Source of the DNA: Eubacteriales bacterium
GTDB lineage: Bacteria > Bacillota > Clostridia > Oscillospirales > CAG-272
Direction of reading: 5' to 3'
Length of the DNA stretch: 64,000 nt
Assembly (NCBI GenBank): GCA_051867815.1
Contig: JBJDZD010000141.1
Location: 19,432-83,431 of the forward strand
Made by a program: the position numbers and the translations under genes. The notes under the pieces are model-generated. The model was given only the letters and a program-made list of their open reading frames with translations. It was not told where the DNA came from and did not search any database. Numbering within the stretch: the first letter of the stretch is position 1; every line of letters begins with the position of its first letter. This document shows, in pieces, positions 24,695 to 52,463 of the stretch.

Positions 24695-24714
24695 ACCGTA
24701 TAGTGAGGTATAGC

Positions 24715-35371: not shown

Positions 35372-35448
35372 TGGTGGGCCATCAAGGACTCGAACCTTGG
35401 ACCGACCGGTTATGAGCCGGTAGCTCTGACCAACTGAGCTAATGGCCC
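35372..35448 (-). tRNA. tRNA with CAT anticodon (sequence resembles the lysidine-modified tRNA-Ile2 type; elongator Met not excluded), CCA encoded
   Basis: The reverse complement GGGCCATTAGCTCAGTTGGTCAGAGCTACCGGCTCATAACCGGTCGGTCCAAGGTTCGAGTCCTTGATGGCCCACCA folds as a 77-nt cloverleaf. It has a 7-bp acceptor stem, a D arm GCTC/GAGC, an anticodon stem ACCGG/CCGGT with loop CTCATAA, and a T arm CAAGG/CCTTG. Confidence 0.9.
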
Positions 35449-36301: not shown

Positions 36302-36324
36302 AAAGCCCACCAAATCAAATATAA

Positions 36325-36360
36325 GGAGCCTCGGGACGCGTCCCGAGGCTCCTCTTTTTT
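36325..36360 (+). terminator. Strong intrinsic terminator
   Basis: A 12-bp perfect stem GGAGCCTCGGGA/TCCCGAGGCTCC has a 4-nt loop and is followed by TCTTTTTT. Confidence 0.9.
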
Positions 36361-36830: not shown

Positions 36831-36859
36831 TTGACTAAATTGATGCTTTGTGATATTAT
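36831..36859 (+). promoter_or_regulatory. Sigma-A promoter (extended -10) of the seven-gene accessory operon
   Basis: TTGACT (36831-36836), a 17-nt spacer and TGATATTAT (TGn + TATTAT, 36851-36859) are present. This is the only strong promoter match between 36361 and 37137. Confidence 0.65.
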
Positions 36860-37136: not shown

Positions 37137-40100
37137 ATGGCAACGAAAATCAAAAGAGCGGTTGCTCTATGCCTCGCGATCATGACTTTCTGCTCGACCT
37201 TCCTCGTATCGGCTGCGGCAAACGATGCGACGTCAAGCTCGGTAACGCAGGATGCCATTGCTTCGGCAAAGGAACTGCTCGGCACGATTTCTTATTCCGA
37301 ATACGCTAAGCAGTATGCGGATATCGAGAACGGAACCGCAGAGATCGTTATAAGCGGTCTTGACTACATCGCGGATCAGACCGATGCGGATGTGTCGATT
37401 GAAACTTACGACGGTATTGAGGCCCTCAAAACTTCCGATACGGGCGTTGTTACCTACAAGGTAACCATTCCCGAAAGCGGCATGTATGCGATCAAGCTTG
37501 ATTATTGGCCCATCGCCGATAAATCGACCGCTGTCCAGAGAATCTTCCGTATTGACGGCAAGGTACCTTTCTCGGAGGCTTATTACATTACGCTTCCCAA
37601 GATCTGGACCACTAACTACGACGAGGCTGACTATTATGAATATGACGGTCAGTGGCGTTGGCATCGCAAGGATATCGACGGCAACGAGATCCGCGGTACG
37701 ATGGAGCAGACACCCGAGTGGTCCAAGTACACCCTGCGCGACGTTCAGGGTTTCTACAAGGATGATTTTGAGTTCTACCTTGAAGCAGGCGAGCACTACA
37801 TCTCTTTCGAGGGTGTTGCCCAGCCCATGGCGATCGAGCAGATCACCATTTACCCCTACGAGGCTCCCATGTCCTACGCGGACTTCATTGCACAGTATGC
37901 AAACGAGCCACAGGGTACTTCGGTAGTCAAGCTTGAGGCTGAGTACCCCAAGTTTACCTCTACCAACACTATCTATCCCGAGGAGGACGCATCCTCTGCG
38001 GTAACCAGTCCCACCAACACAACTGCTTCGATGCTCAATATCATCGGCGGCGACAAGTGGCAGACTGCCGGACAAAGACTTACATACACCTTTACCGTTG
38101 ATTCCAGCGGTATGTATCAGATCGTCCCGAGATACATCCAGAACATCAATGACGGTATGTACTCCTCCCGTACTCTTGAGCTTTACAGCGACAGCACGCT
38201 CAAGCCGGGCGACAAGGGCTATTACAACGGCGTTCCCTTTGACGAGGCCCGCGAGCTTCGTTTCAATTACTCCACCAAATGGTGCGCTGATCCGCTGCGC
38301 TTCGGAACCTCTTCCGGCGACGGTAACAGGATCGACTACACCAACGTTGAGTTTTATTTTGAGGCAGGCGTTGAGTACACCATGGTATTTGAGGTATCCC
38401 TCGGCACCATGGCAAACATCGTTCGCGACGTTAACTCCTCTCTTAACGCGATCAACAATGACTACCTTAATATAATGCGACTCACCGGTGCGGATCCCGA
38501 CCCCTACCGTGATTACTTCTTCGCGAGCGTAATGCCCGACACCATCATCGATCTCTACCGCCAGAAGGGCAACCTTGAAAAGGTCGCAAATGAGCTTGTC
38601 GCTCTTGCGGGCGTCAAGTCATCCAACGTTGCTACTCTTGAAAAGATCTACGTGCTTCTTGAGGACATGGCAAGGGACGAGGATGCTATCGCAAAGAACC
38701 TTGAGCGTCTTAAGTCCTATATCGGTAACCTCGGTACATGGCTCAACGACGCCAAGACTCAGCCCCTCCGTCTTGACTACATTTTGATCCAGGGCGCGGA
38801 CGAGAAGATCCCGAAGGCAGAGGCAAACTTCTTCCAGGCCTTCTGGCATGAGCTTCAGCGCTTCTTCCAGAGCTTCTTCCGCAACTACGACCGCATGGGC
38901 GCAACCGTTGATGCTTCCGAGGTCGAGGGTGCAAACGAGGTTTGGCTCGCATACGGCCGTGACCAAACACAAGTCATCCGCAACCTTATCAACAACGATT
39001 TCACTCCCTCCACGGGTATCACCATAGACCTTAAGCTGGTTGCCGGCGGTACGCTTCTTCCTTCGATCCTTTCGGGTCAGGGACCTGACGTTTACCTCGG
39101 ACTTGGTGACGATAACGTTATCAACTACGCAATCAGAGGCGCGCTGCTTCCCGTTGAGAATATGGAAGGTTTTGCCGATCTCGCTCTTTATTATAAGGTA
39201 GACGAAAACTTCAATACCATCTACGATGAGAACGGCAACCCCGTTAAGAATCCCAACGCACAGTTCAACGAAGCAGCAATGCTCGTTCTCGGCATTGCAG
39301 ACGCTGAGAACAAGATGCATTACTACGGTCTGCCCGAGACTCAGAACTTCCCGATGATGTTCATCCGTACCGATATCCTTGCAGAGCTTGGTATCGACAC
39401 CCTTGACACTTGGGACGACCTTATGGCGGCGGCAACCACCCTCGCCGAGAACAACATGACCATCGGTCTTAATAACGATTACAAGATCTTCCTTTACCAG
39501 ATGGGCGGAACACTTTTCGCCGATGACGGTATGAGAATCAATCTTGATTCCAACGTAGCTCTTGACTCATTTGAGACCATGTGTAACATGTTCACGCAGT
39601 ACTCCTTCCCCTACAAGTACGACTTCGTTAACCGTTTCAGAACGGGTGAGATGCCCATCGGTATCGCAAGCTATAACGGAACATACAACCACCTCGTTGT
39701 ATTTGCAACCGAGCTTCGCGGTATGTGGGAATTCGTTCCGTTGCCCGGTTATTATCAGAAGAATGCAAACGGCGAGCAGGTTCTCAACAACGTATCCGTT
39801 TCTTCCGTTTCCTCCGTTGTAATGATCAACGGCTGTGAGGACAAGGAAGATGCATGGGAATTCATGACCTGGTACACCAGCGACAACACTCAGGTAAGCT
39901 ACTCCAACGAAATGGTTGCAATCCTCGGTGACTCCGCTAAGCATCCTACCGCAAACATGACCGCCCTTGAGACCATGCCTTGGACGAACAAGGAATACAA
40001 GAACCTCTGGGGTCAGTTTGAAAACCTTGCATCCATCCCCAACTATCCCGGTGCATATATCATCGGCCGTTACACCAAGTTTGCATTCCTTTCAGCATAC

Positions 40101-40565
40101 AACGACAATGCAGACCCCGTATCGGAACTCCTTTCGTACATCACTACTATTAATAAGGAAATAAACCGTAAGCGCGAAGAATTCGGACTTGAGACCCTTG
40201 AGGTCGGACAGACGTTGGCCTCCAAGCGACGCGACTGGATCCTCGGCCGTACCGAGACCGGAGACATTCTTGAGGATGCAAACGGCAATAAGTACGGTAT
40301 TGAGGCACTTTCGGACTCTGCTAAGAATACTTATGCAAATGAGATCAAGGTAGTCACCGATGCTCTCGCCGCTGTTCCAAGCTTCAACAGCTACTGCGCA
40401 GACGAATACATCGAAGCTCTCCGCAATGCGGGCAACGCCCTCAAGGCTGCCACCGCATCTGCTTCCGGTGACGATAAGGAAGTATTCGACAATATCTGCG
40501 AATACATCACGGTTTGCGCTGATTCGCTCAAGAAGTACCAGGCATCCTATCCTGAGCAGAAATAA
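37137..40565 (+). CDS. Giant extracellular ABC solute-binding protein: signal peptide + two duplicated beta-sandwich (CBM-like) modules + helical linker + family-1 SBP domain
   Basis: An AGGAGGA RBS precedes ATG 37137, and the signal peptide is MATKIKRAVALCLAIMTFCSTFLVSAAA. Duplicated motifs are ESGMYAIKLDY / SSGMYQIVPRY and EFYLEAGEHYISF / EFYFEAGVEYTMVF. The C-terminal ~550 aa read as a sugar SBP (VWLAYGRDQTQVIRNLINNDFTPSTGITIDLKLV...GQGPDVYLG). Confidence 0.7.
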   Translation: MATKIKRAVALCLAIMTFCSTFLVSAAANDATSSSVTQDAIASAKELLGTISYSEYAKQYADIENGTAEIVISGLDYIADQTDADVSIETYDGIEALKTSDTGVVTYKVTIPESGMYAIKLDYWPIADKSTAVQRIFRIDGKVPFSEAYYITLPKIWTTNYDEADYYEYDGQWRWHRKDIDGNEIRGTMEQTPEWSKYTLRDVQGFYKDDFEFYLEAGEHYISFEGVAQPMAIEQITIYPYEAPMSYADFIAQYANEPQGTSVVKLEAEYPKFTSTNTIYPEEDASSAVTSPTNTTASMLNIIGGDKWQTAGQRLTYTFTVDSSGMYQIVPRYIQNINDGMYSSRTLELYSDSTLKPGDKGYYNGVPFDEARELRFNYSTKWCADPLRFGTSSGDGNRIDYTNVEFYFEAGVEYTMVFEVSLGTMANIVRDVNSSLNAINNDYLNIMRLTGADPDPYRDYFFASVMPDTIIDLYRQKGNLEKVANELVALAGVKSSNVATLEKIYVLLEDMARDEDAIAKNLERLKSYIGNLGTWLNDAKTQPLRLDYILIQGADEKIPKAEANFFQAFWHELQRFFQSFFRNYDRMGATVDASEVEGANEVWLAYGRDQTQVIRNLINNDFTPSTGITIDLKLVAGGTLLPSILSGQGPDVYLGLGDDNVINYAIRGALLPVENMEGFADLALYYKVDENFNTIYDENGNPVKNPNAQFNEAAMLVLGIADAENKMHYYGLPETQNFPMMFIRTDILAELGIDTLDTWDDLMAAATTLAENNMTIGLNNDYKIFLYQMGGTLFADDGMRINLDSNVALDSFETMCNMFTQYSFPYKYDFVNRFRTGEMPIGIASYNGTYNHLVVFATELRGMWEFVPLPGYYQKNANGEQVLNNVSVSSVSSVVMINGCEDKEDAWEFMTWYTSDNTQVSYSNEMVAILGDSAKHPTANMTALETMPWTNKEYKNLWGQFENLASIPNYPGAYIIGRYTKFAFLSAYNDNADPVSELLSYITTINKEINRKREEFGLETLEVGQTLASKRRDWILGRTETGDILEDANGNKYGIEALSDSAKNTYANEIKVVTDALAAVPSFNSYCADEYIEALRNAGNALKAATASASGDDKEVFDNICEYITVCADSLKKYQASYPEQK

Positions 40566-40605: not shown

Positions 40606-41553
40606 ATGTCACAGAAAACAGCAACAAAAAAGGCTGTTGCCAGAAAAGATATGACGCGGCTTCAGTGGACATGGAAAGAGATGAAGCGCAACTGGGTTGC
40701 ATACGTTATGATCGCGCCCTTCGTGCTTGTATTTACCCTCTTTACTGTCGCGCCCGTTTTGGTATCCATCTTCATGAGTTTCACAGACTTCAACATGATC
40801 GAGGTGCCCAATTTCCTCTTCCTGGATAACTACATCCGCCTTTTCCTTGATGACGATATATTCCTTATCGCCGTTAAAAACACATTCATTTTCGCGGTCA
40901 TCGTAGGTCCCGTATCTTACATGATGTCACTCATGGTTGCATGGTTCATCAACGAGCTGGGTCCTAAGATTCGTGCGATCGTTACACTTATTTTCTACGC
41001 TCCTTCCATTGCGGGTCAGGTTTATCTTATTTGGGGTACGCTTTTCTCGGGCGACTCCTACGGTTGGGTAAACGCAACTCTGCTTAATCTCGGACTGATC
41101 AACAAAGAGATTCAGTTCTTCGAGAACGCCGACTACGTTATGCCGCTGTGTATCGTGGTCGCCCTCTGGACATCCCTTGGTACGTCCTTCCTTTCCTTCA
41201 TTGCAGGTCTTCAGGGTATTGACCGCTCCATGTACGAGGCAGGTGCCGTTGACGGTATTCCCACCCGTTGGCATGAGCTTTGGTACATCACCCTTCCTTC
41301 GATGAAGCCCCAGCTGATGTTCGGTGCAATCATGGCGATCACCAGCTCCTTCGGCTTCGGCGGCGTCGTTGATGCGCTCTGCGGCAACCCCTCGGTTGAC
41401 TATTGTGCGTGGACGATAATGCATCACCTGAATGACTATCTCGGTGCCCGTTTCGAGGTCGGATACGGTTCCGCGATAGCAGTCGTGCTCTTTGCGATCA
41501 TGATCGGTGCGAACATGCTCGTTAAGAAATTGCTCTCAAAGGTAGGTCAGTAA
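40606..41553 (+). CDS. ABC sugar transporter permease (MalF/CUT1 type)
   Basis: It has six TM helices and the EAA loop FIAGLQGIDRSMYEAGAVDGIPTRWHELWYITLPSMKP. Confidence 0.85.
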   Translation: MSQKTATKKAVARKDMTRLQWTWKEMKRNWVAYVMIAPFVLVFTLFTVAPVLVSIFMSFTDFNMIEVPNFLFLDNYIRLFLDDDIFLIAVKNTFIFAVIVGPVSYMMSLMVAWFINELGPKIRAIVTLIFYAPSIAGQVYLIWGTLFSGDSYGWVNATLLNLGLINKEIQFFENADYVMPLCIVVALWTSLGTSFLSFIAGLQGIDRSMYEAGAVDGIPTRWHELWYITLPSMKPQLMFGAIMAITSSFGFGGVVDALCGNPSVDYCAWTIMHHLNDYLGARFEVGYGSAIAVVLFAIMIGANMLVKKLLSKVGQ

Positions 41554-41554: not shown

Positions 41555-42427
41555 ATGGCAAGATTAAGAACAAGAAAGCATAAGGTCGTTCTTAACCGCT
41601 CTGTCGGTGGTGACCTCGGCATAAACATTATGCTCATTATTCTCGGAGCATTCATGTTCCTCCCCATGCTCTATGTTGTCATGCAGTCGCTCAAGCCTCT
41701 TGACGAGCTGTGGATGTTCCCTCCGAGATTCATCGTTATGAACCCCACGTTTAATAACTTCTCCGACCTGTTCGTTCTTATGAACATCTCGTGGGTTCCT
41801 TTCTCCCGTTACATATTCAATACGGTTCTCGTATCCGTAGCGGGTACGGCCGGCAACCTCCTCTTTGCTTCGATGTGTGCATACTGCCTGGCAAAGATCA
41901 AGTTCCCCGGACACAAGTGGATATTCAAGACCATCCGTACGTCGCTGATGTTCCACGAGACGGTTACCGCAGTAACCCGTTTCACCATCATGAGCGTGCT
42001 CTTGATGATCGATACACCTCTTGCGCTCATCATCCCGGCATGGGGCTCCACTCTCGGTCTTTACCTCATGAAGCAGTTCATGGAGACCAACGTAAACGAC
42101 TCCGTCCTCGAATCCTCGAGACTTGACGGCGCAAGTGAATGGAGAACTTTCTGGGTCATTGCGATGCCCATGGTTAAGCCTGCATGGCTGACGCTTATCA
42201 TCTATTGCTTCCAGGGTCTGTGGAATCAGGGTTCCTCGATCTACATTCACTCCGAGCAGTACAAGTCCTTCAACTATGCAATCCAGCAGATCACCGCAGG
42301 CGGTATCAAGCGTGCCGGCGCGAGTGCTGCCGCAAACGTAATCATGATGTCGGTACCGATCCTGGTATTCGTCATCTCTCAGTCGAACATCATTGAAACG
42401 ATGGGTTCGTCCGGTATGAAAGACTAA
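41555..42427 (+). CDS. ABC sugar transporter permease (MalG/CUT1 type)
   Basis: The EAA loop is VLESSRLDGASEWRTFWVIAMPMVKPAW. It starts 1 nt after the preceding stop. Confidence 0.85.
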   Translation: MARLRTRKHKVVLNRSVGGDLGINIMLIILGAFMFLPMLYVVMQSLKPLDELWMFPPRFIVMNPTFNNFSDLFVLMNISWVPFSRYIFNTVLVSVAGTAGNLLFASMCAYCLAKIKFPGHKWIFKTIRTSLMFHETVTAVTRFTIMSVLLMIDTPLALIIPAWGSTLGLYLMKQFMETNVNDSVLESSRLDGASEWRTFWVIAMPMVKPAWLTLIIYCFQGLWNQGSSIYIHSEQYKSFNYAIQQITAGGIKRAGASAAANVIMMSVPILVFVISQSNIIETMGSSGMKD

Positions 42428-42437: not shown

Positions 42438-44603
42438 ATGAAGAAATTTATCAGCATATTTGCTCTCCTGTTTGCTCTGATGATGGTTTTCGCACTCCCT
42501 GCAGGGGCGGCAAAAACTTATCAGACCTACACATACTCCATGGGCGGTTTTGCGCTTCATTCACCGGATGCCTACACTCCCGAAGGCACCCACAACTGGG
42601 TCGACATGGGACTTGAGAAGGAGCTTGACTCCCCTCACGACGTTGTAGTTGACAAGAATGATAACATTTACATCGCGGATACGGGCAATAGCCGTGTCGT
42701 TGTTCTCAACCGCTACTTTAAGGTTCAGTTTGAAATCAGTGAATTCGTAAACGATCAGGGTATTGCCGACAAGCTCAATAAGCCCCAGGGCGTTTTCGTA
42801 ACCGCCGATAAGGTTACCCCTTTGGGCGTAGAGGAGGGAATCATCTACGTTTGCGATACCGATCAGAACCGTATCGTAACGTTTGATAAGCAAGGCAATT
42901 TCATTAAGATAATTCCCCAGCCCAAGAGCAGTCTCTTTGACGACAATGCCGTTTACAAGCCCATTGCGATAGCGGTTGATGACTACAACAGATTGTACGT
43001 TGTATCATCGACCACCTATCAGGGTATCATCGTCATGAACGACGACGGCACCTTCATCCGTTTCGTCGGTGCGCAGAAGGTGTCCATCTCCACTTGGGAT
43101 AAGATCTGGAGAATGTTCCAGACCGACGAGCAGAGAGATCGTACCGAATCCGTTATCTCTTCCGAGTTCAACAACATCACCATCGACGACAAGGGCTTCA
43201 TCTACATAACCACATCCACCATAAACGAAAAGGATGTAGCGAATGCGATAAAGAAGAAGTCAAAGTCCGGTGACTATGCACCCGTCAAGATGCTCAACCA
43301 GTCCGGTGACGAGGTCATGGCGCGTAACGGTTTCTGGCCACCTTCCGGTGAGATAGACCTTTCGGGACGTGCTTCCGAGGGCGCTACCACGGGCGTTTCC
43401 GAGATCATCGACGTAGCAATCGGCCCGGAGAATACTTGGTCCATCATTGACGCAAAGCGTCAGAAGATATTCACCTACGACGACAACGGAAATCTGCTGT
43501 TTGCCTTCGGCGACAAGGGTTCTCAGCTCGGTAACCTCAAGAACATTGAAGGTATTACCTACATGAGCGACGGCAGAATGCTCGTCCTCGACAAGACGGA
43601 CGACAACATCACCGTTTTCTCCCGTACCGAGTACGGTGACATACTGATTCGCGCAATTGAGCACCAGAATGACCGTAAGTACGACCTTGCCAAAGAAGAC
43701 TGGGAAGAGATCCTCAAGAGAAACTCCAATTTCGACGCTGCCTACATCGGTATCGGCGATGCACTTTACCGCAACGGTCAGTACAGCGAGGCGCTTCCTT
43801 ATTACGAAGCCGCGTATGATACTCAGGGCTGGTCCGACTCCTACAAGGAGATCAGAAAAGAGTGGATCGCAAAGTACGTTCTTCTCATTCCGCTCTTTAT
43901 CATAGTAGTCGTAGTTCTCGTCTCCCTCTTCTTCAAGAAGGCCGCAAAGGTCAATAAGAGGGCAGCAACCGCAGGCGGAAAGAGAACCTTCGGCGAGGAG
44001 ATGCTCTTCGCATTCCATCTTATTTTCCACCCCTTCGACGGTTTCTGGGATCTCAAGCATGAAAAGAGAGGCTCTGTCCGAGCAGCCATTGTATACGTTT
44101 TACTTACCATACTCGCATTCTTCTATCAGGCTATCGGCTCCGGTTACCTCGTAAATCCCCACGGCTCATACACCACCATCTTCACGCAGGCACTCAGCGT
44201 TCTTGTACCGCTGTTCCTGTGGATAGTTGCGAACTGGTGTCTTACGACTTTGTTTGACGGTGAAGGAAGCTTCAAGGATATCTTCGTTGCATGCGGATAT
44301 TCGCTTCTCCCCCTCATTCTGACAGTCATTCCCACCACAATCTTTACCAACGTTGCTCTTAAGGAAGAGCTTGATATCACCAACCTTATCGTCACCTTCG
44401 GCTTTACCTGGTCAATACTTCTGATATTCGTCGGCATGCAGGTGACACACGATTATACCCTGTTCAAGAACGTTATTACCACACTCGGCACAATTGTTGC
44501 AATGATATTCATAATGTTTGTAGCGATCCTCTTTACAACTCTCGTAGGCAAGATGGTAAGCTTCATCACCAACATCGTTGTCGAGATCAGCTACCGAATG
44601 TAA
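42438..44603 (+). CDS. Signal peptide + six-bladed NHL-type beta-propeller + TPR-like segment + TM + C-terminal Yip1-like multi-pass membrane domain
   Basis: NHL-like blades include DKNDNIYIADTGNSRVVVLN, IIYVCDTDQNRIVTFDKQGNF, NRLYVVSSTTYQGIIVMNDDGTF, SIIDAKRQKIFTYDDNGNLLFAFG and MLVLDKTDDNITVF. The TPR-like stretch is AAYIGIGDALYRNGQYSEALPYYEAAY. Then come a TM helix and five further hydrophobic helices beginning LFAFHLIFHPFDGFWDLK, which I read as Yip1-like from memory. Confidence 0.6.
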   Translation: MKKFISIFALLFALMMVFALPAGAAKTYQTYTYSMGGFALHSPDAYTPEGTHNWVDMGLEKELDSPHDVVVDKNDNIYIADTGNSRVVVLNRYFKVQFEISEFVNDQGIADKLNKPQGVFVTADKVTPLGVEEGIIYVCDTDQNRIVTFDKQGNFIKIIPQPKSSLFDDNAVYKPIAIAVDDYNRLYVVSSTTYQGIIVMNDDGTFIRFVGAQKVSISTWDKIWRMFQTDEQRDRTESVISSEFNNITIDDKGFIYITTSTINEKDVANAIKKKSKSGDYAPVKMLNQSGDEVMARNGFWPPSGEIDLSGRASEGATTGVSEIIDVAIGPENTWSIIDAKRQKIFTYDDNGNLLFAFGDKGSQLGNLKNIEGITYMSDGRMLVLDKTDDNITVFSRTEYGDILIRAIEHQNDRKYDLAKEDWEEILKRNSNFDAAYIGIGDALYRNGQYSEALPYYEAAYDTQGWSDSYKEIRKEWIAKYVLLIPLFIIVVVVLVSLFFKKAAKVNKRAATAGGKRTFGEEMLFAFHLIFHPFDGFWDLKHEKRGSVRAAIVYVLLTILAFFYQAIGSGYLVNPHGSYTTIFTQALSVLVPLFLWIVANWCLTTLFDGEGSFKDIFVACGYSLLPLILTVIPTTIFTNVALKEELDITNLIVTFGFTWSILLIFVGMQVTHDYTLFKNVITTLGTIVAMIFIMFVAILFTTLVGKMVSFITNIVVEISYRM

Positions 44604-44628: not shown

Positions 44629-47600
44629 ATGAAAAGAATATTGGCATTACTTTTAACTGTCATAACGATGTTCGGAACATTTGCCGTTAATATCAGCGCA
44701 GCGGCCGTTCCCGATATCCTTGAAAAGGATAAGGACGGCAAGGATATTCCCGGCGAGGTCGACTGGACGTCCACTCTCAAGCAGTATCTGACTCTGGAAT
44801 TCAAGACAGAGCAGGAAAAGCTTGAGTCGATGACCATGATGTATGAAAAGGACGGTTATCAGCTTTGGATCGATGACTATACAGGCGAGGTTGCCACAGT
44901 CAACGTTGCAAGCGGTCAGATACTGTTCTCAAACCCCTACGATATCGGTTCGACTTCATCAAGTGACTCGATCAAAGCAGAGTTGTTTTCCCAGATCGTA
45001 GTCAAATACACGGATAACGACACCGAAAAGTACATGCACAGCTTCACAGAGGCTGCATCTCGCGGACAGATCAATTTTAAGTATATCAAGAACGGTATCC
45101 GCGTAGAGTACAGTATCGGTCGTGAAGAGACGAGAATGCTCGTTCCCCGTCAGATCGAAAGATCGAGATTTGAGGACTTCATTCTCCAGCCCTTCGCAGA
45201 CGAGATCAACAAGATCTCCGAAGAAAACGGCTGCATAGTGCTTGACTGGAGAGAATATCTCCCCATGGCTAAGCGTAACAACATGATCAAGGATTCCTCT
45301 CCCACCGGCCAGCCAAAGGACGGTAACAACGAATGGTTCAAGTTCGTTAAGCTCCTTGCGTTCTATTCCCAGAAGTTCCTCGGTGAATGTGAAACGGAGA
45401 AGGAAAGAAGATCAATGCTTGCCCTTTATCCCATCACCAAGAAGATGGATATTTACGTATGTACTCCCGATATAAGCCGTAACGAGCTTATCACCATTGA
45501 GGGCTACCTCAAGACATACGTTCCCACCTACACCTTCGAACAGCTTGAAGCTGACCATTTGATGACCGAGTATGAGGGTCAGGATAAGTCACCTCCTCTC
45601 TTCAAGATGGCTCTTGAGTACACTCTTGACGAGATGGGCATGACTGTAAGACTTCCCGCAAACGGCTTGCGTTTTGACGAGTCGCTCTATCAGCTCACCT
45701 ACGTAAGCATCCTTCCCTATATGGGCGCAGGTGCAAACTACCTCCTCGGAGACAAGGATGAGGAGTTTACAGGCTACAACTTCTTCCCGGACGGCTCCGG
45801 TACTCTCTTCCGTCACGAGGAACTGAACGGCAAGGCTAACACCGTCGTGAACGGTAAGGTCTACGGCCAGGACTTCGCATACAATACCATCGTCGGCGCT
45901 AACCAGCAGGTTATCCGTTATCCCGTATTCGGTATCGTTTCCAATACTCACCGCACCGAGTCGGTTAAGGTCGAGAAGCGTGTCACCGAGGAAGTCACGG
46001 ACGCCAACGGCAACGTCATTATCATTGATAAGGACGGAAGTATCGTCAACGAACACAAGTACGAAGAGGGAATGGTTGACATTGAAGTCACGGAAGACAA
46101 GGGCTTTGTGGCAATCATCGAAGAAGGCGACGCTCTTGCGGAGCTTTCCGACTACCACATGGGTTCATCCGGTAAGTACAACACCATTCAGATGCTGTTC
46201 TACCCCAGACCTAAGGACTCTTATAACCTTGCGAACGCTATCTCGGTCGGTGCAAATGCAACCTGGACCGTCGTTTCCTCCCGTAAGTACGTAGGCAACT
46301 ACAAAATCCGCTATATCATGCTCACCGACGACCAGATCGCCGAGGAGAAGGGCATGGATAAATACTACGAATGCTCTTGGATGGGTATGGCCGAGGCTTA
46401 CCGCGACTACCTCTACAGCAAGGGCGATCTCGAGTCTCTCACCGAAAAGGATGTTCAAGCTGACATCCCCATGTATATCGAGACCTTCGGTACTCTCGAG
46501 ACCCTTGAGAAGATCATGTCCATCCCCGTAAACGTAATGACCTCCTTGACCTCCTTCGAGAATGTCAAGACGATGTACGACGAGCTTTCCGCAGAGGGAG
46601 TATCGAACATCAAGTTCAAGCTCAGGGGCTATGCAAACGGCGGCATGTATTCCTCCGTTCCCTACAAGCTTGAGTGGGAAAAATCCGTCGGCGGCGCGAG
46701 TGGCTTCAAGGATCTCCTTGATTACTCGGCAGAGAAGGGCTTCGAGGTATTCCCCGAGTTCGACTTTGTATATGTCGGCACTACTAAGGCCTTTGACGGT
46801 CTTACCCTCAAGAAGCACATAGTTAAGTCGATCAACGACACCTACATGTCACGCCGTTATTACAGCGCGACCCGTCAGACTCACGTCGGACGCTATGAGC
46901 TTGCGATCTCCGCGGCTTACTATTCGCATTTCTACGATAAGCTCACCTCAAATCTTCTTAAATATTATGAAGATACGGATGCTCTCAAAGCGATTTCCGT
47001 AAGCACTCTCGGTACGGACCTCAACTCCGACTTCGACGAGGATGAGCCTTACAACCGCGAGGACAACAAAAAGTACACGATGAATATCTTCTCCAAGATG
47101 GATGAGGATTACGATCTCGTTATGACCGAGGGCGCAAATGCTTACACTTGGAAGTACGTAGATTACATCATTAACGTTCCGCTTGACTCAAGCCGTTACA
47201 ACATGTCTTCAAACTCCGTTCCCTTCATCGGCGTTGTCCTTCACGGAAGCGTTCAGTTTGCAGGTACTCCTCTTAACATGGAGGGTAACATCGGTTACAG
47301 CATGCTTAAGGCGATCGAGAACGGCGCAGGTCTTTACTTCATCCTCTGCTATGAAAACTACGAGGAACTGAAGGAAGATCACATACTCAGCGAGTACTAC
47401 TCCGTACGCTACGACATCCTTAAGGATGACGTAGTCAGGTATTACACCATCCTCAACGACCTTACAAAGGACCTCCAGCTCTCCAAGATCGTAGGACATA
47501 AGTTCCTCATCGGCGAGCGCGTTCCCGATCCCGACGAGGTAATTGCGGATGAAGAGGCTCTTAAGAAGGAACAAGAGCTTGCCGAACAGCTTAAGGCAGA

Positions 47601-50202
47601 AGAAGAAGCCAAGAAGCTCCAGGAAGCCCTCCTTGAAGGCCGTGTATATGCCGCATCCGTATCCGGCTCTGCCGCTCTTGAGATTTCAAAGATTTACGCA
47701 GACATCCAGGGCTACTACAAGGGCGCCATCATTGTTAATGATAACGGTATCGTAAGCGTAAGAACCGGTATGCAGACCCTTATTCAGGACGCTCTCGCAA
47801 AGGCGGCTATCAAGAATCCTCTTGAATCCACCTACCAGCTTGCAAATGCGTGGGATAAGGCAAACAAGCTCTTTGCATCCAACTATCCGCTTACCGGAGT
47901 CAACCAGATTCGCGCAGACCTCGAAAAGGCACTCGCATCCGCCAACACCTCTCTCACTCTTGCAATCAACGCAGTTCCCGAAAAGGAAGCGGCACTCCTT
48001 GCCGCTGTTGACAAGGCAGTTGCAGCCAAGATAGCGTCACTTCCCACTCTCGTTCAGGCTTACGACAAGGCAGTCGCCGATCGCGATGCCATCACAGACG
48101 TAACCTCCGACGAATACGCTGCAAAGCAGGCACTTGTTGATGAGGCTCTTGCCGCAATCACCAAGTACGTCGCATCCCTCGACGATGCAAGAGCTTATGC
48201 GAATGCATACAATGCAATGAGCGTGGCCAGAGCCACCATGGCAAGCATTCTGACTCAACTCACCTCTGCAAAGAACGATGCAGTTACTGCTTACGAGAAT
48301 GCTCAGAAGGCTGCCGCTGTTCTCCTTGCTGAGAATGCAGAGTATCTTGCAAAGACCGCAGAGCTTAAGGAGCTTGAGCTTCAGCGTGCCAAGCTCACAA
48401 CGGTTCTGATGAACCTCAAGAACAACCTTTCCTCTTATTCCGCAAGCTATCCCGACAGCTACGAGCATAAGCTTCTCATCTCCTACATTGCCGACTACGA
48501 GGCAAAGATAGAGGTCGCTACCGATGCAGTCAATGCTAAGCAGGATGAGATCGACGCTCTCTATGCAACGGTTGACGCAGGCTTTGCCGCTCTCAAGAGC
48601 GCGGCAGAGGCGGCAACGGCTCTCGTTGCAAATCCCGAGAATGATGCTTCTTATGCGGCAGAAAAGGCTGTTTACGATGCTAACACGCAGATCATCGACA
48701 CCCTCACCGCGGCGCTCACTCCCGCAGTTCGCACCGTATACGAGAACATGATCGACGAGTACACCGTTCTTTCCGGCAATTACACCGCGCTTACCTCCCA
48801 GCTCTCTGCAATGGAGCTTGCGGCTTACACAGGAGCCGATTATGACAGACTTGCGGCAGCCGTTGAGGATAAGAAGAACGCTCTCACCGCTCTTACCGAG
48901 GGCTATGTTAACGACGCAACCTACATTGACCTCGTTGAGAAGCTCACCGCATCCATTGACGCGAAGATCGCAGAGCTGGTTGCAAAGATCGACGGAGCGG
49001 ATGCCGCTACCCAGATCAAGCTGGCAAACGAGATAGCTTCACTGATGTCCGTTAAGTACCAGAAGGTAACGATTCCGAAAAACATCGGCAAGGAAGGCGC
49101 AAACATCCTCCTTGAGGTTGAAAAGAATTCGGACGGTTACGTTATCGGCGGCGGTTATATCGTCAACGATTACATCACCAAGTACAAGACCAACATCAAG
49201 AAGAGCGCAGAATACACCGCACTCGACAAGGAGCTTGACACCGCCACTCTGGCATTCAACTCATACAAAAACGGTAAGCTCGGAGCGCTTAAGTCCACCG
49301 ACGATTACAAGGCACTTAAGGCACAAGCCGATGCCTTACTCTCCGAGATGAATGCATACGATCTTGACACGATCGATTTCCGTAACGCACTTACTCAGCT
49401 TATCAACGCTCGCGCAAACGAAATCTCCGCACAGGCTAAGGCAGACGCCGCTAAGGCAGCCCTTGATGCGGCAGAGCCGTACACCGGTGTTGACGCTTAT
49501 GAAAAGGTACTTGCGGCTTACACGGTCGCTATGGCACCCGATGCAAACATTCTCACCAAGTACCCGACGGCACTTAAGGATTACAACACCGCATTTGGCT
49601 ATGTAAAGACTCAGATCACCAGCGTAAACAGCCTCTTCAAGAACCTCGATACTCAGGCCGATATCCTTAATACCGCACTCAAGAACTCCGATATTGCAAA
49701 GAAATATTACCATTCCGATGAGTTCCGGGGCGTATATTCTCCTGAGTTCCTTGCAGATCTTGACAACGTTTATGCCGAGACGTTTGAGAACACGAAGTCC
49801 GCAAACGTAATCGTTGACGAAGCACTTGTCGTCTTCATCGACACCCTCACGCTCGCAAAGACCCTCATCCCCAACACCAACGCAGACCTTGAGCTTACCG
49901 CTCTCCGCGTTGTGACCAAGGATGACGGAACCATCGAGGTTCCCGAAATCATCGAGGACACCGAGGAAGAAGAGGAAGAAGATGATGAGGACGAGTACGA
50001 GTACACCAAGTACACGGAGGACTCCGGATACATCGTCTACATTGAATACGACAACGGTGCTTTCTTCATTCTCAACTACAATGACTTCGCAGTTGTCACC
50101 GTTTTGGACGGTACTGCATACACCATCAAGCCCTACGGCGGTGTACTGGTTAATGCCGAAGGTACTACCCGGTACTTTAAGGCAACTGAGGGAATTTACT
50201 AA
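44629..50202 (+). CDS. 1857-aa secreted protein: ~970-aa uncharacterised N-terminal region (possibly DUF5696-like) + ~800-aa Ala-rich alpha-helical region + poly-Glu/Asp tract + ~60-aa C-terminal beta domain
   Basis: A GGAAGGAGA RBS precedes ATG 44629, and the signal peptide is MKRILALLLTVITMFGTFAVNISAAA. The N-terminal region includes IPMYIETFGTLE...KFKLRGYANGGMYSSVPYKLEWEKSVGG...GFEVFPEFDF. From ~47530 the sequence is EEALKKEQELAEQLKAEEEAKKLQEA and then hundreds of A/L/K/E/T/D-rich residues. The EDTEEEEEEDDEDEYEY tract lies at ~49955-50005. I saw no LPXTG, SLH or dockerin motif. Confidence 0.6.
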   Translation: MKRILALLLTVITMFGTFAVNISAAAVPDILEKDKDGKDIPGEVDWTSTLKQYLTLEFKTEQEKLESMTMMYEKDGYQLWIDDYTGEVATVNVASGQILFSNPYDIGSTSSSDSIKAELFSQIVVKYTDNDTEKYMHSFTEAASRGQINFKYIKNGIRVEYSIGREETRMLVPRQIERSRFEDFILQPFADEINKISEENGCIVLDWREYLPMAKRNNMIKDSSPTGQPKDGNNEWFKFVKLLAFYSQKFLGECETEKERRSMLALYPITKKMDIYVCTPDISRNELITIEGYLKTYVPTYTFEQLEADHLMTEYEGQDKSPPLFKMALEYTLDEMGMTVRLPANGLRFDESLYQLTYVSILPYMGAGANYLLGDKDEEFTGYNFFPDGSGTLFRHEELNGKANTVVNGKVYGQDFAYNTIVGANQQVIRYPVFGIVSNTHRTESVKVEKRVTEEVTDANGNVIIIDKDGSIVNEHKYEEGMVDIEVTEDKGFVAIIEEGDALAELSDYHMGSSGKYNTIQMLFYPRPKDSYNLANAISVGANATWTVVSSRKYVGNYKIRYIMLTDDQIAEEKGMDKYYECSWMGMAEAYRDYLYSKGDLESLTEKDVQADIPMYIETFGTLETLEKIMSIPVNVMTSLTSFENVKTMYDELSAEGVSNIKFKLRGYANGGMYSSVPYKLEWEKSVGGASGFKDLLDYSAEKGFEVFPEFDFVYVGTTKAFDGLTLKKHIVKSINDTYMSRRYYSATRQTHVGRYELAISAAYYSHFYDKLTSNLLKYYEDTDALKAISVSTLGTDLNSDFDEDEPYNREDNKKYTMNIFSKMDEDYDLVMTEGANAYTWKYVDYIINVPLDSSRYNMSSNSVPFIGVVLHGSVQFAGTPLNMEGNIGYSMLKAIENGAGLYFILCYENYEELKEDHILSEYYSVRYDILKDDVVRYYTILNDLTKDLQLSKIVGHKFLIGERVPDPDEVIADEEALKKEQELAEQLKAEEEAKKLQEALLEGRVYAASVSGSAALEISKIYADIQGYYKGAIIVNDNGIVSVRTGMQTLIQDALAKAAIKNPLESTYQLANAWDKANKLFASNYPLTGVNQIRADLEKALASANTSLTLAINAVPEKEAALLAAVDKAVAAKIASLPTLVQAYDKAVADRDAITDVTSDEYAAKQALVDEALAAITKYVASLDDARAYANAYNAMSVARATMASILTQLTSAKNDAVTAYENAQKAAAVLLAENAEYLAKTAELKELELQRAKLTTVLMNLKNNLSSYSASYPDSYEHKLLISYIADYEAKIEVATDAVNAKQDEIDALYATVDAGFAALKSAAEAATALVANPENDASYAAEKAVYDANTQIIDTLTAALTPAVRTVYENMIDEYTVLSGNYTALTSQLSAMELAAYTGADYDRLAAAVEDKKNALTALTEGYVNDATYIDLVEKLTASIDAKIAELVAKIDGADAATQIKLANEIASLMSVKYQKVTIPKNIGKEGANILLEVEKNSDGYVIGGGYIVNDYITKYKTNIKKSAEYTALDKELDTATLAFNSYKNGKLGALKSTDDYKALKAQADALLSEMNAYDLDTIDFRNALTQLINARANEISAQAKADAAKAALDAAEPYTGVDAYEKVLAAYTVAMAPDANILTKYPTALKDYNTAFGYVKTQITSVNSLFKNLDTQADILNTALKNSDIAKKYYHSDEFRGVYSPEFLADLDNVYAETFENTKSANVIVDEALVVFIDTLTLAKTLIPNTNADLELTALRVVTKDDGTIEVPEIIEDTEEEEEEDDEDEYEYTKYTEDSGYIVYIEYDNGAFFILNYNDFAVVTVLDGTAYTIKPYGGVLVNAEGTTRYFKATEGIY

Positions 50203-51206: not shown

Positions 51207-51224
51207 GGAAAGGAGGAAAGATTC

Positions 51225-52352: not shown

Positions 52353-52371
52353 TTTCCGCGCTGTCCGGAAA

Positions 52372-52408
52372 AGAAACCCCGGCATCCTTTCGGATGTCGG
52401 GGCTTCTT
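52372..52408 (+). terminator. Hairpin terminator after the accessory operon
   Basis: The stem CCCCGGCATCC/GGATGTCGGGG contains one G-U pair, has a TTTC loop and has extended A/T flanks. The U-tract is interrupted. Confidence 0.6.
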
Positions 52409-52414
52409 TATATC

Positions 52415-52453
52415 AAAAACGCGCGTCCTTCAAAAGGAAGGACACGCGTTTTT
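52415..52453. terminator. Bidirectional terminator shared by the accessory operon and alaS
   Basis: AAAAACGCG-C-GTCCTTC / GAAGGAC-A-CGCGTTTTT forms a 12-bp stem with one mismatch, with A5 on the left and T5 on the right. Confidence 0.8.
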
Positions 52454-52463
52454 GTATATTTGA

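What the first reader, a model, noticed from the sequence alone, without database searches (positions are those of the whole stretch)
42438..44603. Extracellular NHL beta-propeller + TPR fused to a Yip1-like multi-pass membrane domain inside an ABC operon
The 721-aa product starts with a cleavable-looking signal peptide and then about six NHL-type blades, with repeated xxIYVxDxxNxRIxxF-like strands. A TPR-like helical pair follows, then one TM helix, a short basic loop (KKAAKVNKRAATAGGKR) and five more TM helices whose beginning (HPFDGFWDLK) looks like bacterial Yip1-domain proteins. Bacterial Yip1 proteins are functionally obscure. A fusion to a large extracytoplasmic propeller, encoded between permease genes, suggests an accessory or docking subunit rather than an enzyme.
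Basis: partly seen in the sequence, partly recalled or inferred. Interest (0 to 1): 0.6.

Follow-up and report, generated by a model that had tools for sequence, protein, structure and literature searches.

The report
NHL-TPR-Yip1 fusion in sugar-uptake cassette
This membrane protein carries a six-bladed propeller outside the cell and sits in a seven-gene sugar-uptake operon conserved in hundreds of gut Clostridia; it most likely holds a secreted sugar-cutting enzyme next to the import channels, but nobody has tested this.

Summary
ORF 42438-44603 (+) encodes 721 aa: a signal peptide, a six-bladed NHL propeller, about 2.5 TPR units, one TM helix, a basic cytoplasmic loop and a five-TM Yip1 domain (Pfam, hydropathy, AlphaFold2 with Foldseek).

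It is the fourth gene of a seven-gene operon with no ATPase or regulator gene. The order is a CBM-like/SBP fusion, permeases P1 and P2, the target, a DUF5696 giant, then permeases P3 and P4. That order is kept in all 80 related loci examined. About 528 matches were found in a one-genome-per-species collection.

Three results are new:
- In Lachnospiraceae, Clostridiaceae and Anaerotaenia the same cassette encodes NHL-TPR-TM (~500 aa) and Yip1 (~207 aa) as two adjacent genes. The window protein is therefore a Rosetta-stone fusion.
- The DUF5696 core has a GH129/GH101-like glycosidase fold.
- The SBP and the glycosidase-like protein have signal peptides but no recognisable anchor.

The best reading is a membrane scaffold or accessory subunit, as YknW is for YknXYZ, that couples the enzyme to the importers. 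This is inferred, not shown. I found no literature on the cassette. I rate it a new variant of a known kind, of moderate to good interest.

The parts
36831..36859 (+). Promoter-like site (TTGACT-17-TATTAT with TG) upstream of the cassette. It is preceded by a strong terminator at 36324-36353.
   Evidence: a consensus match only
37137..40565 (+). Gene 1: a secreted 1142-aa solute-binding protein. It has a signal peptide without a consistent lipobox, a ~600-aa N-terminal extension with weak CBM35/Golvesin_C-like hits, and an SBP_bac_1 core.
40606..41553 (+). Gene 2: ABC permease P1 (BPD_transp_1, UgpA/MalF-like)
41555..42427 (+). Gene 3: ABC permease P2 (BPD_transp_1, UgpE/MalG-like)
42438..44603 (+). 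Gene 4, the finding: the 721-aa NHL-TPR-TM-Yip1 fusion protein
42438..42509 (+). Signal peptide, residues 1-24 (…ALPAGA|AK)
   Evidence: read directly from the sequence
42573..43628 (+). Six-bladed NHL beta-propeller, residues ~46-397. It carries conserved insertions (W224-Q232; K276-E305, 'RNGFWPPSGE').
43629..43871 (+). TPR-type helical region, residues 398-478 (five helices). It includes the highly conserved ILKRNSNFDAAYIGI.
43872..43934 (+). TM1, residues 479-499. This is the C-terminal membrane anchor of the NHL-TPR half in split-gene relatives.
43935..44015 (+). Basic cytoplasmic linker, residues 500-526. This is the point where the gene is split in other lineages.
44016..44600 (+). Yip1 domain, residues 527-721: five TM helices. 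Its near-invariant motifs lie on the cytoplasmic face: HPFDGFWDLKHEKRG (531-545), NWCLTTLFDGEGSFK (599-613) and THDY (670-673).
44629..50202 (+). Gene 5: a secreted 1857-aa DUF5696 protein. It has a GH129/GH101-like beta-sandwich plus (beta/alpha)8 core, a ~800-aa helical Ala/Lys/Glu-rich region and a small C-terminal beta domain. No anchor motif was found.
50217..51206 (+). Gene 6: divergent ABC permease P3 (BPD_transp_1), with an acidic hydrophilic insertion after TM3
51225..52352 (+). Gene 7: divergent ABC permease P4 (BPD_transp_1), with a ~135-aa non-TM insertion
52377..52402 (+). Terminator-like hairpin (11 pairs, 8 of them GC) that closes the operon. The convergent alaS gene follows.

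Best explanation
The protein is a membrane-integral scaffold or accessory subunit of a cell-surface glycan-processing and import machine.

**What is shown**
- It is a fusion of two components that are separate genes in other Clostridia. One is a signal-peptide NHL-propeller/TPR ectodomain on a single TM anchor. The other is a five-TM Yip1 protein.
- Its position in the cassette is fixed. The cassette order is a CBM-like SBP, permeases P1 and P2, the target, a GH129-like secreted enzyme, then permeases P3 and P4.

**What is inferred**
- The Yip1 bundle packs against the permease TM domains, as the Yip1-family protein YknW does in the B. subtilis YknWXYZ transporter. Its most conserved surface faces the cytoplasm.
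- The TPR and propeller stand outside the membrane. They hold the otherwise unanchored glycosidase-like protein, and possibly the unanchored SBP, next to the permeases, so that released sugars are captured and imported.
- ATP hydrolysis would come from a shared MsmK/MsmX-type ATPase encoded elsewhere, as is established for CUT1 importers of Firmicutes.
For: 1. Domain architecture and N-out/C-out topology with a cytoplasmic basic loop.

2. Strict synteny. In 80 loci from different species the seven genes keep the same order and strand wherever the contig allows: DUF5696 in 78 of 80, P2 in 78, P1 in 76, P3 in 75, and SBP and P4 in 71 each. The flanks are not conserved.

3. Rosetta-stone evidence. 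In L081-L089 (Anaerotaenia torta, Lachnospiraceae, Clostridiaceae and others) NHL-TPR-TM (480-516 aa) and Yip1 (~207 aa) are adjacent genes at the same cassette position. They abut or overlap in five of the six distinct loci. The break falls in the cytoplasmic basic loop.

4. The neighbour has a glycosidase fold. The DUF5696 core matches GH129 NagBb (5wzp) at Foldseek E = 4e-19, then GH101, GH31 and GH36.

5. The SBP and DUF5696 orthologues carry type-I-like signal peptides. They have no consistent lipobox, no C-terminal TM, no LPxTG and no wall-binding Pfam domain. In a monoderm they would need a tether.

6. The Yip1 part is most conserved on its cytoplasmic face and least conserved in its outer loops. 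This fits a protein-contact role rather than an outward-facing pore or receptor.

7. Precedent: YknW is a Yip1-family protein needed for the activity and assembly of the ABC transporter YknXYZ (PMC4887032, citing Yamada et al. 2012).

8. A weak hint: pairwise-distance correlations over 65 cassettes group the propeller and Yip1 with the GH, P3 and P4. The propeller gives r = 0.79, 0.77 and 0.69 with those, against 0.54-0.67 with SBP, P1 and P2. The bootstrap difference is 0.146, 95% CI 0.03-0.28.

9. The genes are tightly packed (intergenic gaps of 1-40 nt) inside one promoter-terminator frame.
Against: - No physical interaction was tested.
- Absence of anchors is a negative result from simple motif and hydropathy checks. 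An uncleaved signal anchor on the SBP or the GH would remove the need for a tether.
- YknW serves a MacB-type exporter with a membrane-fusion protein, not a CUT1 importer, so the analogy is loose.
- The mirror-tree signal is small and could reflect shared rate class or shared recombination history.
- The propeller has conserved non-canonical loops (276-305, 224-232) that could equally form a ligand or catalytic site.
- The GH assignment of DUF5696 rests on fold only. A sequence profile against the PDB found nothing in the core, and catalytic residues were not mapped.
Confidence: 0.45

Rival explanations
1. The ectodomain is itself a carbohydrate-active module, either a glycan-binding lectin or an enzyme such as a lactonase or lyase. 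The NHL propeller would bind or modify the substrate at the membrane surface, and the Yip1 part would merely anchor it near the transporters.
For: - Six-bladed NHL/SGL-type propellers include enzymes. Virginiamycin B lyase 2z2o appears among the fold matches.
- There are weak SGL/gluconolactonase-type hits (SGL marked weak or faint), and one homologue is named 'sugar lactone lactonase YvrE' by JGI.
- Conserved non-canonical loops at 224-232 and 276-305 are kept even between fused and split forms.
Against: - SGL scores 18.2 bits against a cut-off of 26.3, and the best matches are non-enzymatic NHL domains.
- This reading does not explain why a conserved five-TM Yip1 partner with a conserved cytoplasmic face is always present, when a single TM anchor already exists in the split form.
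- TPR units usually mediate protein contacts.
Confidence: 0.2
2. It is a substrate sensor or gatekeeper. The propeller would detect extracellular glycan, as the NHL domain of the M. tuberculosis kinase PknD is thought to sense a ligand. The Yip1 domain would then allosterically switch one or both permease pairs on or off.
For: - The fold matches the PknD extracellular sensor domain (1rwl, TMt 0.77).
- The fused-type cassette has no regulator gene, so control at the protein level is conceivable.
- The conserved cytoplasmic face of Yip1 could contact the ATPase or the coupling helices.
Against: - There is no cytoplasmic output domain. The cytoplasmic parts are a ~48-aa loop and two short loops.
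- The ligand of the PknD propeller is itself unknown.
- Split-type cassettes do have AraC/LacI regulators nearby, yet they keep both proteins.
Confidence: 0.15
3. It is a biogenesis or secretion factor. The TPR and propeller would act as an extracytoplasmic chaperone or holdase for folding and release of the very large secreted enzyme and SBP. The Yip1 part would work at the membrane, by loose analogy with eukaryotic Yip1 in membrane trafficking.
For: - Both partners are unusually large Sec substrates (1142 and 1857 aa).
- TPR domains are common in chaperone adaptors.
- The association with DUF5696 is strict, and the propeller co-varies with the GH.
Against: - The length of the target is constant (705-753 aa), while the enzyme varies from 955 to 2036 aa.
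- No known bacterial secretion chaperone has this architecture.
- Co-variation with P3 is as strong as with the enzyme.
Confidence: 0.1

Closest known systems
YknW of Bacillus subtilis/amyloliquefaciens (Yip1-family subunit of the four-component ABC transporter YknWXYZ)
   Same: It is a bacterial Yip1-domain polytopic membrane protein encoded in an operon with ABC transporter genes. YknW is required as an accessory subunit that modulates assembly of the transporter (PMC4887032).
   Different: - YknW is a stand-alone Yip1 protein with no NHL/TPR ectodomain.
- Its partner is a MacB-type exporter with a membrane-fusion protein that protects against the SDP toxin.
- Here the partners are CUT1-type sugar-importer permeases, an SBP and a glycosidase-like protein.
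- Direct sequence relatedness beyond the shared Pfam domain was not tested.
Split-gene form of the same cassette in Lachnospiraceae, Clostridiaceae and Anaerotaenia torta (annotated 'NHL' hypothetical protein plus 'YIP1 family protein')
   Same: It has the same cassette order and the same motifs: IFHPFDGFWDLKHEKRG, NWCxTTLMDGEGSFKD and THQY. The ectodomain architecture is the same, at 28-36% identity.
   Different: - It has two genes instead of one.
- The SBP (~960 aa) and DUF5696 (~870 aa) are shorter.
- A second small SBP lies next to the cassette (after P4 in five loci, upstream in L089).
- The cassettes lie among CAZyme genes, and two of them next to an AraC or LacI regulator. The fused form lies among housekeeping genes.
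Extracellular NHL beta-propeller of M. tuberculosis Ser/Thr kinase PknD (PDB 1rwi/1rwl)
   Same: It is a six-bladed NHL propeller displayed outside a bacterial membrane on a TM anchor.
   Different: PknD couples the propeller to a cytoplasmic kinase. Here there is no signalling domain, and the propeller is followed by TPR units and a Yip1 bundle.
Eukaryotic Yip1/YIPF proteins
   Same: They share the Pfam Yip1 domain, five TM helices and a cytoplasmic N-terminus.
   Different: The eukaryotic proteins act in ER-Golgi vesicle traffic with Rab GTPases. That machinery does not exist here, so the shared feature is the fold and not the pathway.
Bacteroidota SusCD 'utilisome' (a functional analogy only, from general knowledge)
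   Same: The idea is the same: a surface glycoside hydrolase, a glycan-binding protein and a transporter are held together in one complex and encoded in one locus.
   Different: The components and the envelope are entirely different. The utilisome is an outer-membrane TonB-dependent system, whereas this would be a monoderm ABC importer. No complex has been shown for the present cassette.
GH129 alpha-N-acetylgalactosaminidase NagBb (PDB 5wzp) and GH101 endo-alpha-GalNAc-ases, as relatives of the neighbouring DUF5696 protein
   Same: They share the beta-sandwich plus (beta/alpha)8 barrel fold (Foldseek E = 4e-19, ~690 aligned columns).
   Different: - Identity is only 10-13%.
- Sequence and profile searches detect nothing.
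- Catalytic residues have not been mapped.
- DUF5696 adds a long helical region and a C-terminal domain.

Membership tests
Yip1 domain family (Pfam PF04893) | Match to the family HMM above the curated gathering score, over the full domain | tested here: met
   62.9 bits against a cut-off of 28.6; residues 527-696 match profile positions 2-172 of 173. All 120 listed homologues carry PF04893.
Yip1 domain family (Pfam PF04893) | Five TM helices with a cytoplasmic N-terminal segment | tested here: met
   Hydropathy and the positive-inside rule: the loop at 500-548 has 11 K/R and is followed by five hydrophobic helices. The AF2 model shows helices 547-567, 581-606, 612-637, 642-671 and 675-720.
NHL-repeat six-bladed beta-propeller (Pfam PF01436) | NHL HMM match above the cut-off | tested here: met
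   44.6 bits against a cut-off of 20. phmmer against the PDB hits Thin, TRIM71, TRIM2/3 and PknD NHL domains down to E = 4e-14.
NHL-repeat six-bladed beta-propeller (Pfam PF01436) | Closed six-bladed propeller fold | tested here: met
   The AF2 model has six four-stranded blades. Foldseek target-normalised TM-scores are 0.74-0.78 to six-bladed NHL structures over ~350 columns. Blades 3-4 and the loops at 212-241 and 302-314 are of low confidence.
TPR repeats | TPR HMM match and paired antiparallel helices | tested here: met
   TPR_16 scores 33.7 against 32.7 and TPR_2 scores 27.0 against 27 (both marginal). Five helices at 398-480 appear in the AF2 model. There are PDB consensus-TPR hits at 414-461.
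YknW-type accessory subunit of an ABC transporter | Yip1 protein encoded in one operon with ABC transporter membrane components | tested here: met
   The gene lies between two BPD_transp_1 permease pairs in all loci examined.
YknW-type accessory subunit of an ABC transporter | Partner is a MacB/FtsX-type permease with a membrane-fusion protein and a dedicated ATPase | tested here: not met
   The partners are CUT1-type BPD_transp_1 permeases and an SBP. The cassette has no FtsX/MacB, MFP or ATPase gene.
YknW-type accessory subunit of an ABC transporter | Physical association with the transporter, and a requirement for its activity | not testable with these tools
   This needs co-purification, genetics or complex prediction.
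SGL/gluconolactonase-type enzymatic propeller (Pfam PF08450) | HMM match above the cut-off | tested here: not met
   18.2 bits against a cut-off of 26.3. NCBIfam ScyF/ScyE hits fall far below their cut-offs (55 against 350).
CUT1-type binding-protein-dependent sugar ABC importer (the cassette as a whole) | Family-1 SBP plus two BPD_transp_1 permeases with an EAA-loop region | tested here: met
   SBP_bac_1 scores 70-74 bits. P2, P3 and P4 score above the BPD_transp_1 cut-off, and P1 scores 22.1 against 26.4. The best NCBIfam resemblances are UgpA/UgpE/MalF/MalG/GlcTU, all below equivalog cut-offs.
CUT1-type binding-protein-dependent sugar ABC importer (the cassette as a whole) | Cognate ATPase (MalK/MsmK type) | tested here: not met
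   There is no Walker A + LSGGQ ORF in the window cassette. The ~240-aa ATPases found upstream in 12 of 80 loci lie well outside the cassette and look SufC-like. Supply of the ATPase in trans is inferred from established knowledge of Firmicutes (MsmX/MsmK).
Glycoside hydrolase of GH129/GH101-like fold (the neighbour, DUF5696) | N-terminal beta-sandwich plus (beta/alpha)8 barrel similar to GH129 | tested here: met
   AF2 pTM is 0.73. Foldseek gives E = 4e-19 to 5wzp and 2e-17 to 5opq, then GH101, GH31 and GH36.
Glycoside hydrolase of GH129/GH101-like fold (the neighbour, DUF5696) | Conserved catalytic nucleophile and acid/base residues at the positions seen in GH129 | not tested
   No residue-level structural alignment was available. 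Many invariant Asp/Glu lie in the barrel, but they were not mapped.

The most novel reading that the evidence does not exclude
The cassette may encode a Gram-positive counterpart of the Bacteroidota utilisome. A Yip1-plus-NHL/TPR scaffold would assemble a secreted GH129-like glycosidase, a CBM-bearing binding protein and two ABC permease pairs into one surface complex. This would be a previously unrecognised class of ABC-importer accessory subunit and the first defined role for bacterial Yip1 proteins in nutrient uptake. In the fused lineage, which lacks a second SBP nearby, the propeller could even act as the substrate receptor for the second permease pair.
Probability: 0.25. Interest if true: 0.8.

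Novelty: new variant of a known kind. Interest (0 to 1): 0.58.

Why it matters
Bacterial Yip1-domain proteins are widespread and almost uncharacterised. The only functional precedent I found is YknW, which serves a toxin-efflux pump.

Here a Yip1 protein, fused or adjacent to an extracellular NHL/TPR module, is an obligatory part of a sugar-uptake cassette. That cassette is conserved in several hundred species of uncultured gut Clostridia from ruminants, horses and humans, and in a split form in Lachnospiraceae and relatives.

If it organises a secreted glycosidase and two ABC importers into one machine, three things would follow:
- It would define a new type of importer accessory subunit.
- It would give DUF5696 a place as a glycosidase family.
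- It would explain how monoderm gut bacteria keep large unanchored enzymes and binding proteins at the cell surface.

The split and fused pair gives a direct, testable interaction hypothesis. Anaerotaenia torta, a named species whose genome carries two split cassettes, is a possible experimental host.

Tried and rejected
- **Downstream + strand ORFs.** ORFs 52324-55145 first looked like conserved cassette members, with tblastn hits in about 20 loci. They are antisense shadows of alaS and were dropped.
- **Solved relatives of DUF5696 and the SBP.** phmmer and a 45-sequence profile against the PDB found nothing in the cores and only coiled-coil noise in the variable region. The GH129 link is therefore fold-only.
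- **Literature.** 'DUF5696', 'PF18952' and 'Yip1 + NHL repeat + ABC transporter' each returned 0 papers. 'YIP1 family protein + glycoside hydrolase' returned only irrelevant papers.
- **Dedicated ATPase.** Walker A + LSGGQ ORFs were found in only 12 of 80 loci, 1.5-2.5 kb upstream. From the sequence and its neighbours they appear to be SufC-type Fe-S ATPases, judged by eye without an HMM. They were rejected as cassette members.
- **Lipoprotein anchoring of the SBP.** Some orthologues have a G-C inside the hydrophobic region. Its position is not conserved, many lack Cys, and an AxA-type site follows. I did not accept this as a lipobox, but SignalP/LipoP was not available.
- **Sortase motifs.** None were found in the SBP or the GH.
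- **One fusion event or several.** A rough NJ tree of 142 Yip1 domains interleaves stand-alone and fused forms. The domain is too short and some entries may be fragments, so this is left unresolved.
- **Mirror-tree analysis.** It gives only a modest preference for the GH/P3/P4 module. The first bootstrap failed on NaNs and was rerun.
- **Rfam.** Only a tRNA was found in the window, and no riboswitch upstream of the operon.
- **NCBIfam.** There is no curated family for the target. Only sub-threshold ScyF/LIC_12708 NHL hits were found.
Full report
**1. The observation**

ORF 42438-44603 (+) is real and encodes 721 aa. A perfect AAGGAGG Shine-Dalgarno site lies 5 nt upstream of the ATG.

Pfam supports all three domain assignments:
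- Yip1 PF04893: 62.9 bits against a cut-off of 28.6. It covers residues 527-696, which is essentially the whole profile.
- NHL PF01436: 44.6 bits against a cut-off of 20.
- TPR_16 and TPR_2: at or just above their cut-offs, residues 406-462.

phmmer against PDB sequences finds NHL domains of Thin, TRIM71, TRIM2/3 and the extracellular domain of M. tuberculosis PknD.

Hydropathy and charge counting give this layout:
- a signal peptide at 1-24 (…PAGA|AK);
- an acidic ectodomain at 25-478;
- TM1 at 479-499;
- a loop at 500-548 with 11 Lys/Arg, so it is cytoplasmic;
- five more TM helices, which put the C-terminus outside.

An AlphaFold2 model built on 53 homologues has mean pLDDT 76. It shows six four-stranded blades, with the N-terminal strand 46-52 probably completing the last blade. 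It also shows five TPR-type helices at 398-480 and six TM helices. Foldseek against the PDB returns only six-bladed NHL propellers at the top, with target-normalised TM-scores of 0.74-0.78.

**2. The operon**

The gene is the fourth of seven tightly packed + strand genes, with intergenic gaps of 1-40 nt. A promoter-like site lies at 36831-36859 and hairpin terminators at 36324-36353 and 52377-52402. The genes are:
1. A 1142-aa secreted protein. Its C-terminal half is a family-1 solute-binding protein. Its ~600-aa N-terminal half gives only weak CBM35/Golvesin_C-like hits.
2. Permease P1, UgpA/MalF-like.
3. Permease P2, UgpE/MalG-like.
4. The target.
5. A DUF5696 protein of 1857 aa, counted from ATG 44629.
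6. Permease P3.
7. Permease P4. P3 and P4 form a second, very divergent pair that is not a recent duplicate of P1/P2. Both carry hydrophilic insertions.

The cassette has no ATPase gene and no regulator. The + strand ORFs after P4 are antisense shadows of alaS at 52464-55094 (-). The rest of the window is housekeeping: dnaE, secA, pcrA, a class A PBP, glmS, the spoIIIA operon and ackA. The organism is therefore a spore-forming clostridial bacterium.

**3. Distribution and synteny**

The protein has thousands of full-length relatives: 3980 hits, of which the top 120 are all ~98-100% coverage at 59-91% identity. Where a source names them, most are called 'YIP1 family protein [Clostridia bacterium]'.

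All 80 retained loci come from uncultured Clostridia, Eubacteriales or Oscillospiraceae genomes from ruminant, horse and human guts.

tblastn of the window proteins against those 80 loci shows the same seven genes in the same order and orientation wherever the contig is long enough. The counts are DUF5696 78, P2 78, P1 76, P3 75, and SBP and P4 71 each. Flanking genes are not conserved.

The permeases are the most conserved components (mostly 72-94% identity for P1/P2). The target is intermediate (55-82%). DUF5696 is the most variable, in identity (38-68%) and in length (955-2036 aa).

The flanks of these cassettes are housekeeping genes, not CAZymes or regulators. On reading the sequences they look like alaS, a SufC-like ATPase, a sigma factor, a SpoIIGA-like protein, SpoIIIAA and others. 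Only alaS and SpoIIIAA were confirmed by an HMM, in the window.

It is not met.

**4. The fusion is a Rosetta stone**

An exhaustive HMMER search with the TM1+Yip1 part (residues 470-721) found 1657 cluster representatives, 1152 of them at E ≤ 1e-10. Most are ~700-aa fusions, down to ~33% identity. Some are 199-226-aa stand-alone Yip1 proteins. These carry the same signature motifs: IFHPFDGFWDLKHEKRG, NWCxTTLMDGEGSFKD and THQY.

I looked up six such stand-alone proteins in their contigs. They come from two loci of Anaerotaenia torta, from Lachnospiraceae and Clostridiaceae MAGs, and from an assembly for a protein cluster labelled Atribacteria. In every case the cassette order is:

SBP (~960 aa) – P1 – P2 – NHL/TPR protein (480-516 aa) – Yip1 (~207 aa) – DUF5696 (~850-880 aa) – P3 – P4.

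A second, ordinary-sized SBP usually follows.

The NHL/TPR protein has a signal peptide, the propeller, the TPR region, one C-terminal TM helix and a short basic tail. The Yip1 gene starts immediately after it, or overlaps it, in five of the six distinct loci (36 nt apart in L085). Its product begins with the cytoplasmic HPFDGFWDL segment. The window protein is therefore exactly these two proteins joined in the cytoplasmic basic loop.

The ectodomains of the fused and split forms align over their full length at 28-36% identity. They share the PYxSYTY N-terminus, the blade motifs, the insertions and the TPR motif WExVLxxNxNxxxAYxGxG.

Such a fusion is classical evidence that the two parts work together physically. 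A rough NJ tree interleaves fused and split forms, so the number of fusion or fission events is unresolved.

Split-type cassettes lie among GH43, GH5, GH106, GH38, GH113, GH18 and CBM6 genes. Both Anaerotaenia torta cassettes (L081, L087) also have an AraC or LacI regulator nearby. These are carbohydrate-utilisation loci.

**5. The neighbours**

The DUF5696 core (window 45478-47877) was modelled with 45 homologues, giving pTM 0.73. Foldseek against the PDB gives these matches, in order:
- GH129 alpha-N-acetylgalactosaminidase NagBb at E = 4e-19;
- the GH129 3,6-anhydro-D-galactosidase of Zobellia;
- GH101 endo-alpha-GalNAc-ases;
- GH31 and GH36.

The core is thus a beta-sandwich plus (beta/alpha)8 glycosidase fold. 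Sequence methods do not see this, and the catalytic residues were not mapped.

After the core comes a ~800-aa Ala/Lys/Glu-rich helical region, which accounts for the length variation, and then a small conserved C-terminal beta domain.

Both the SBP and the DUF5696 protein, in the window and in their orthologues, have Sec-type signal peptides with AxA-like sites. They have no consistently placed lipobox cysteine, no second TM, no LPxTG and no wall-binding Pfam domain. In a monoderm bacterium an SBP has to be held at the membrane, and here no anchor is visible.

**6. Where the constraint lies in the target**

Column entropy over 53 homologues shows the most conserved stretches:
- HPFDGFWDLKHEKRG (531-545), cytoplasmic, just before the first Yip1 helix;
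- NWCLTTLFDGEGSFK (599-613), at the end of TM3 and in cytoplasmic loop 2;
- the TPR helix ILKRNSNFDAAYIGI (425-439);
- blades 3 and 5.

The outward loops of the Yip1 domain and TM1 are the least conserved. The functional face of the Yip1 domain is therefore cytoplasmic or intramembrane.

**7. Co-variation, a weak hint**

I computed Kimura-corrected pairwise distances for ten protein segments across 65 complete cassettes. They fall into two correlated groups: {SBP halves, P1, P2} and {propeller, Yip1, GH core, P3, P4}.

The propeller correlates at 0.79, 0.77 and 0.69 with the GH, P3 and P4. It correlates at 0.54-0.67 with SBP, P1 and P2. The bootstrap difference is 0.146, with a 95% CI of 0.03-0.28. 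For the Yip1 part the CI touches zero, and for the TPR there is no difference. Shared rate class or shared recombination history could produce the same pattern.

**8. Mechanism**

Three things are shown: the architecture and topology, the invariant cassette position, and the fusion/split relationship. A glycosidase-like fold for the neighbour is predicted.

The mechanism itself is inferred:
- The Yip1 bundle associates with permease TM domains, and through its conserved cytoplasmic face with their cytoplasmic parts or the shared ATPase.
- The TPR and propeller hold the secreted enzyme, and perhaps the SBP, at the surface beside the permeases, so that products are imported efficiently.

[quoted passage not shown] 2012). 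The ATPase is presumed to be a shared MsmK/MsmX-type protein encoded elsewhere. This rests on established knowledge of CUT1 systems in Firmicutes and was not tested here.

I give this 0.45. The rivals are:
- a lectin or enzyme role for the propeller (0.2);
- a PknD-like sensor or gatekeeper of the transporter (0.15);
- a biogenesis chaperone for the giant secreted proteins (0.1).

Chance co-location is excluded by the synteny.

**9. Comparison with what is known**

The protein is a true member of the Pfam Yip1 and NHL families, and both membership tests were met. It works like YknW only in the broad sense of a Yip1 subunit of an ABC system. The defining partners of YknW (MacB/FtsX permease, membrane-fusion protein, dedicated ATPase) are absent, so I do not file it as a YknW-type system. 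It does not meet the SGL/lactonase HMM threshold.

No NCBIfam model covers it. I found no paper that mentions DUF5696, PF18952 or a Yip1/NHL/ABC combination.

**10. Verdict**

It is now better supported by comparative genomics, but it remains untested.

The family itself is abundant in databases under a generic name. What is new is its place in a conserved, uncharacterised seven- or eight-gene glycan-uptake cassette, the fusion/split evidence, and the glycosidase-like nature of DUF5696.

I rate it a new variant of a known kind, with interest 0.58.

Noticed in passing
window 44629-50202: The DUF5696 (PF18952) 'unknown function' protein has a GH129/GH101-like beta-sandwich plus (beta/alpha)8 core by fold (Foldseek E = 4e-19 to 5wzp). 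Sequence and profile searches of the PDB do not detect this. The family may be an unclassified glycoside hydrolase family.
   Followed up: partly
window ~47540-49970 (residues ~970-1780 of the DUF5696 protein): An Ala/Lys/Glu-rich helical region of about 800 aa lies between the catalytic core and a small conserved C-terminal beta domain. Orthologue length ranges from 955 to 2036 aa, and the variation lies here. Split-type cassettes (~870 aa) appear to lack it. It may be a stalk or spacer.
   Followed up: partly
window 37137-40565: The solute-binding protein has a ~600-aa N-terminal extension with weak CBM35/Golvesin_C-like hits. Its signal peptide lacks a consistent lipobox across 70 orthologues, which is unusual for a Gram-positive SBP.
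   Followed up: partly
window 50217-52352: The second permease pair, P3/P4, is very divergent from P1/P2 (only ~40-60-residue local matches). Both carry long hydrophilic insertions (about residues 150-250 in P3 and 138-272 in P4), reminiscent of the MalF P2 loop. No second SBP gene lies nearby in the fused-type loci, whereas split-type loci have one.
   Followed up: partly
window 31123-32787: A single ORF fuses an XRE-type HTH_3 domain (residues 7-61) to a complete four-domain phosphoglucomutase/phosphomannomutase. A hexapeptide transferase (32784-33449) and glmS (33450-35279) follow. This is an unusual regulator-enzyme fusion in an amino-sugar context.
   Followed up: no
window 52324-55145 (+ strand): Three long + strand ORFs (211, 114 and 595 aa) give tblastn hits in related loci, but they are antisense shadows of alaS at 52464-55094 (-). 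This is a trap for ORF-based reading.
   Followed up: yes
80 fused-type loci (L001-L080) compared with split-type loci L081-L089: Fused-type cassettes sit among housekeeping and sporulation genes, with no CAZymes or regulators in the ±10 kb retrieved. On reading the sequences these look like alaS, a SufC-like ATPase, a sigma factor, a SpoIIGA-like protein and SpoIIIAA. Split-type cassettes sit in CAZyme-rich loci (GH43, GH5, GH106, GH38, GH113, GH18), two of them with an AraC or LacI regulator. The fused lineage may express the system constitutively.
   Followed up: partly
protein P0264: A 631-aa cluster representative combines BirA-like HTH_11 and BPL_LplA_LipB domains with a TPR and this Yip1 subfamily domain. 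It is probably an assembly or gene-calling chimera, but it could be another fusion.
   Followed up: no
window 35600-36301: A 233-aa protein with one N-terminal TM helix and no Pfam hit lies upstream of the cassette, separated from it by a strong terminator. It is conserved upstream of the SBP gene in only 7 of 80 loci, so it is probably not part of the system.
   Followed up: partly
window 24017-26124: Two ORFs directly after secA (225 and 473 aa) have no Pfam match.
   Followed up: no
window 35375-35448 (-): A single tRNA gene is the only Rfam hit in the window. No riboswitch or leader RNA was detected in the ~830-nt gap upstream of the operon.
   Followed up: yes
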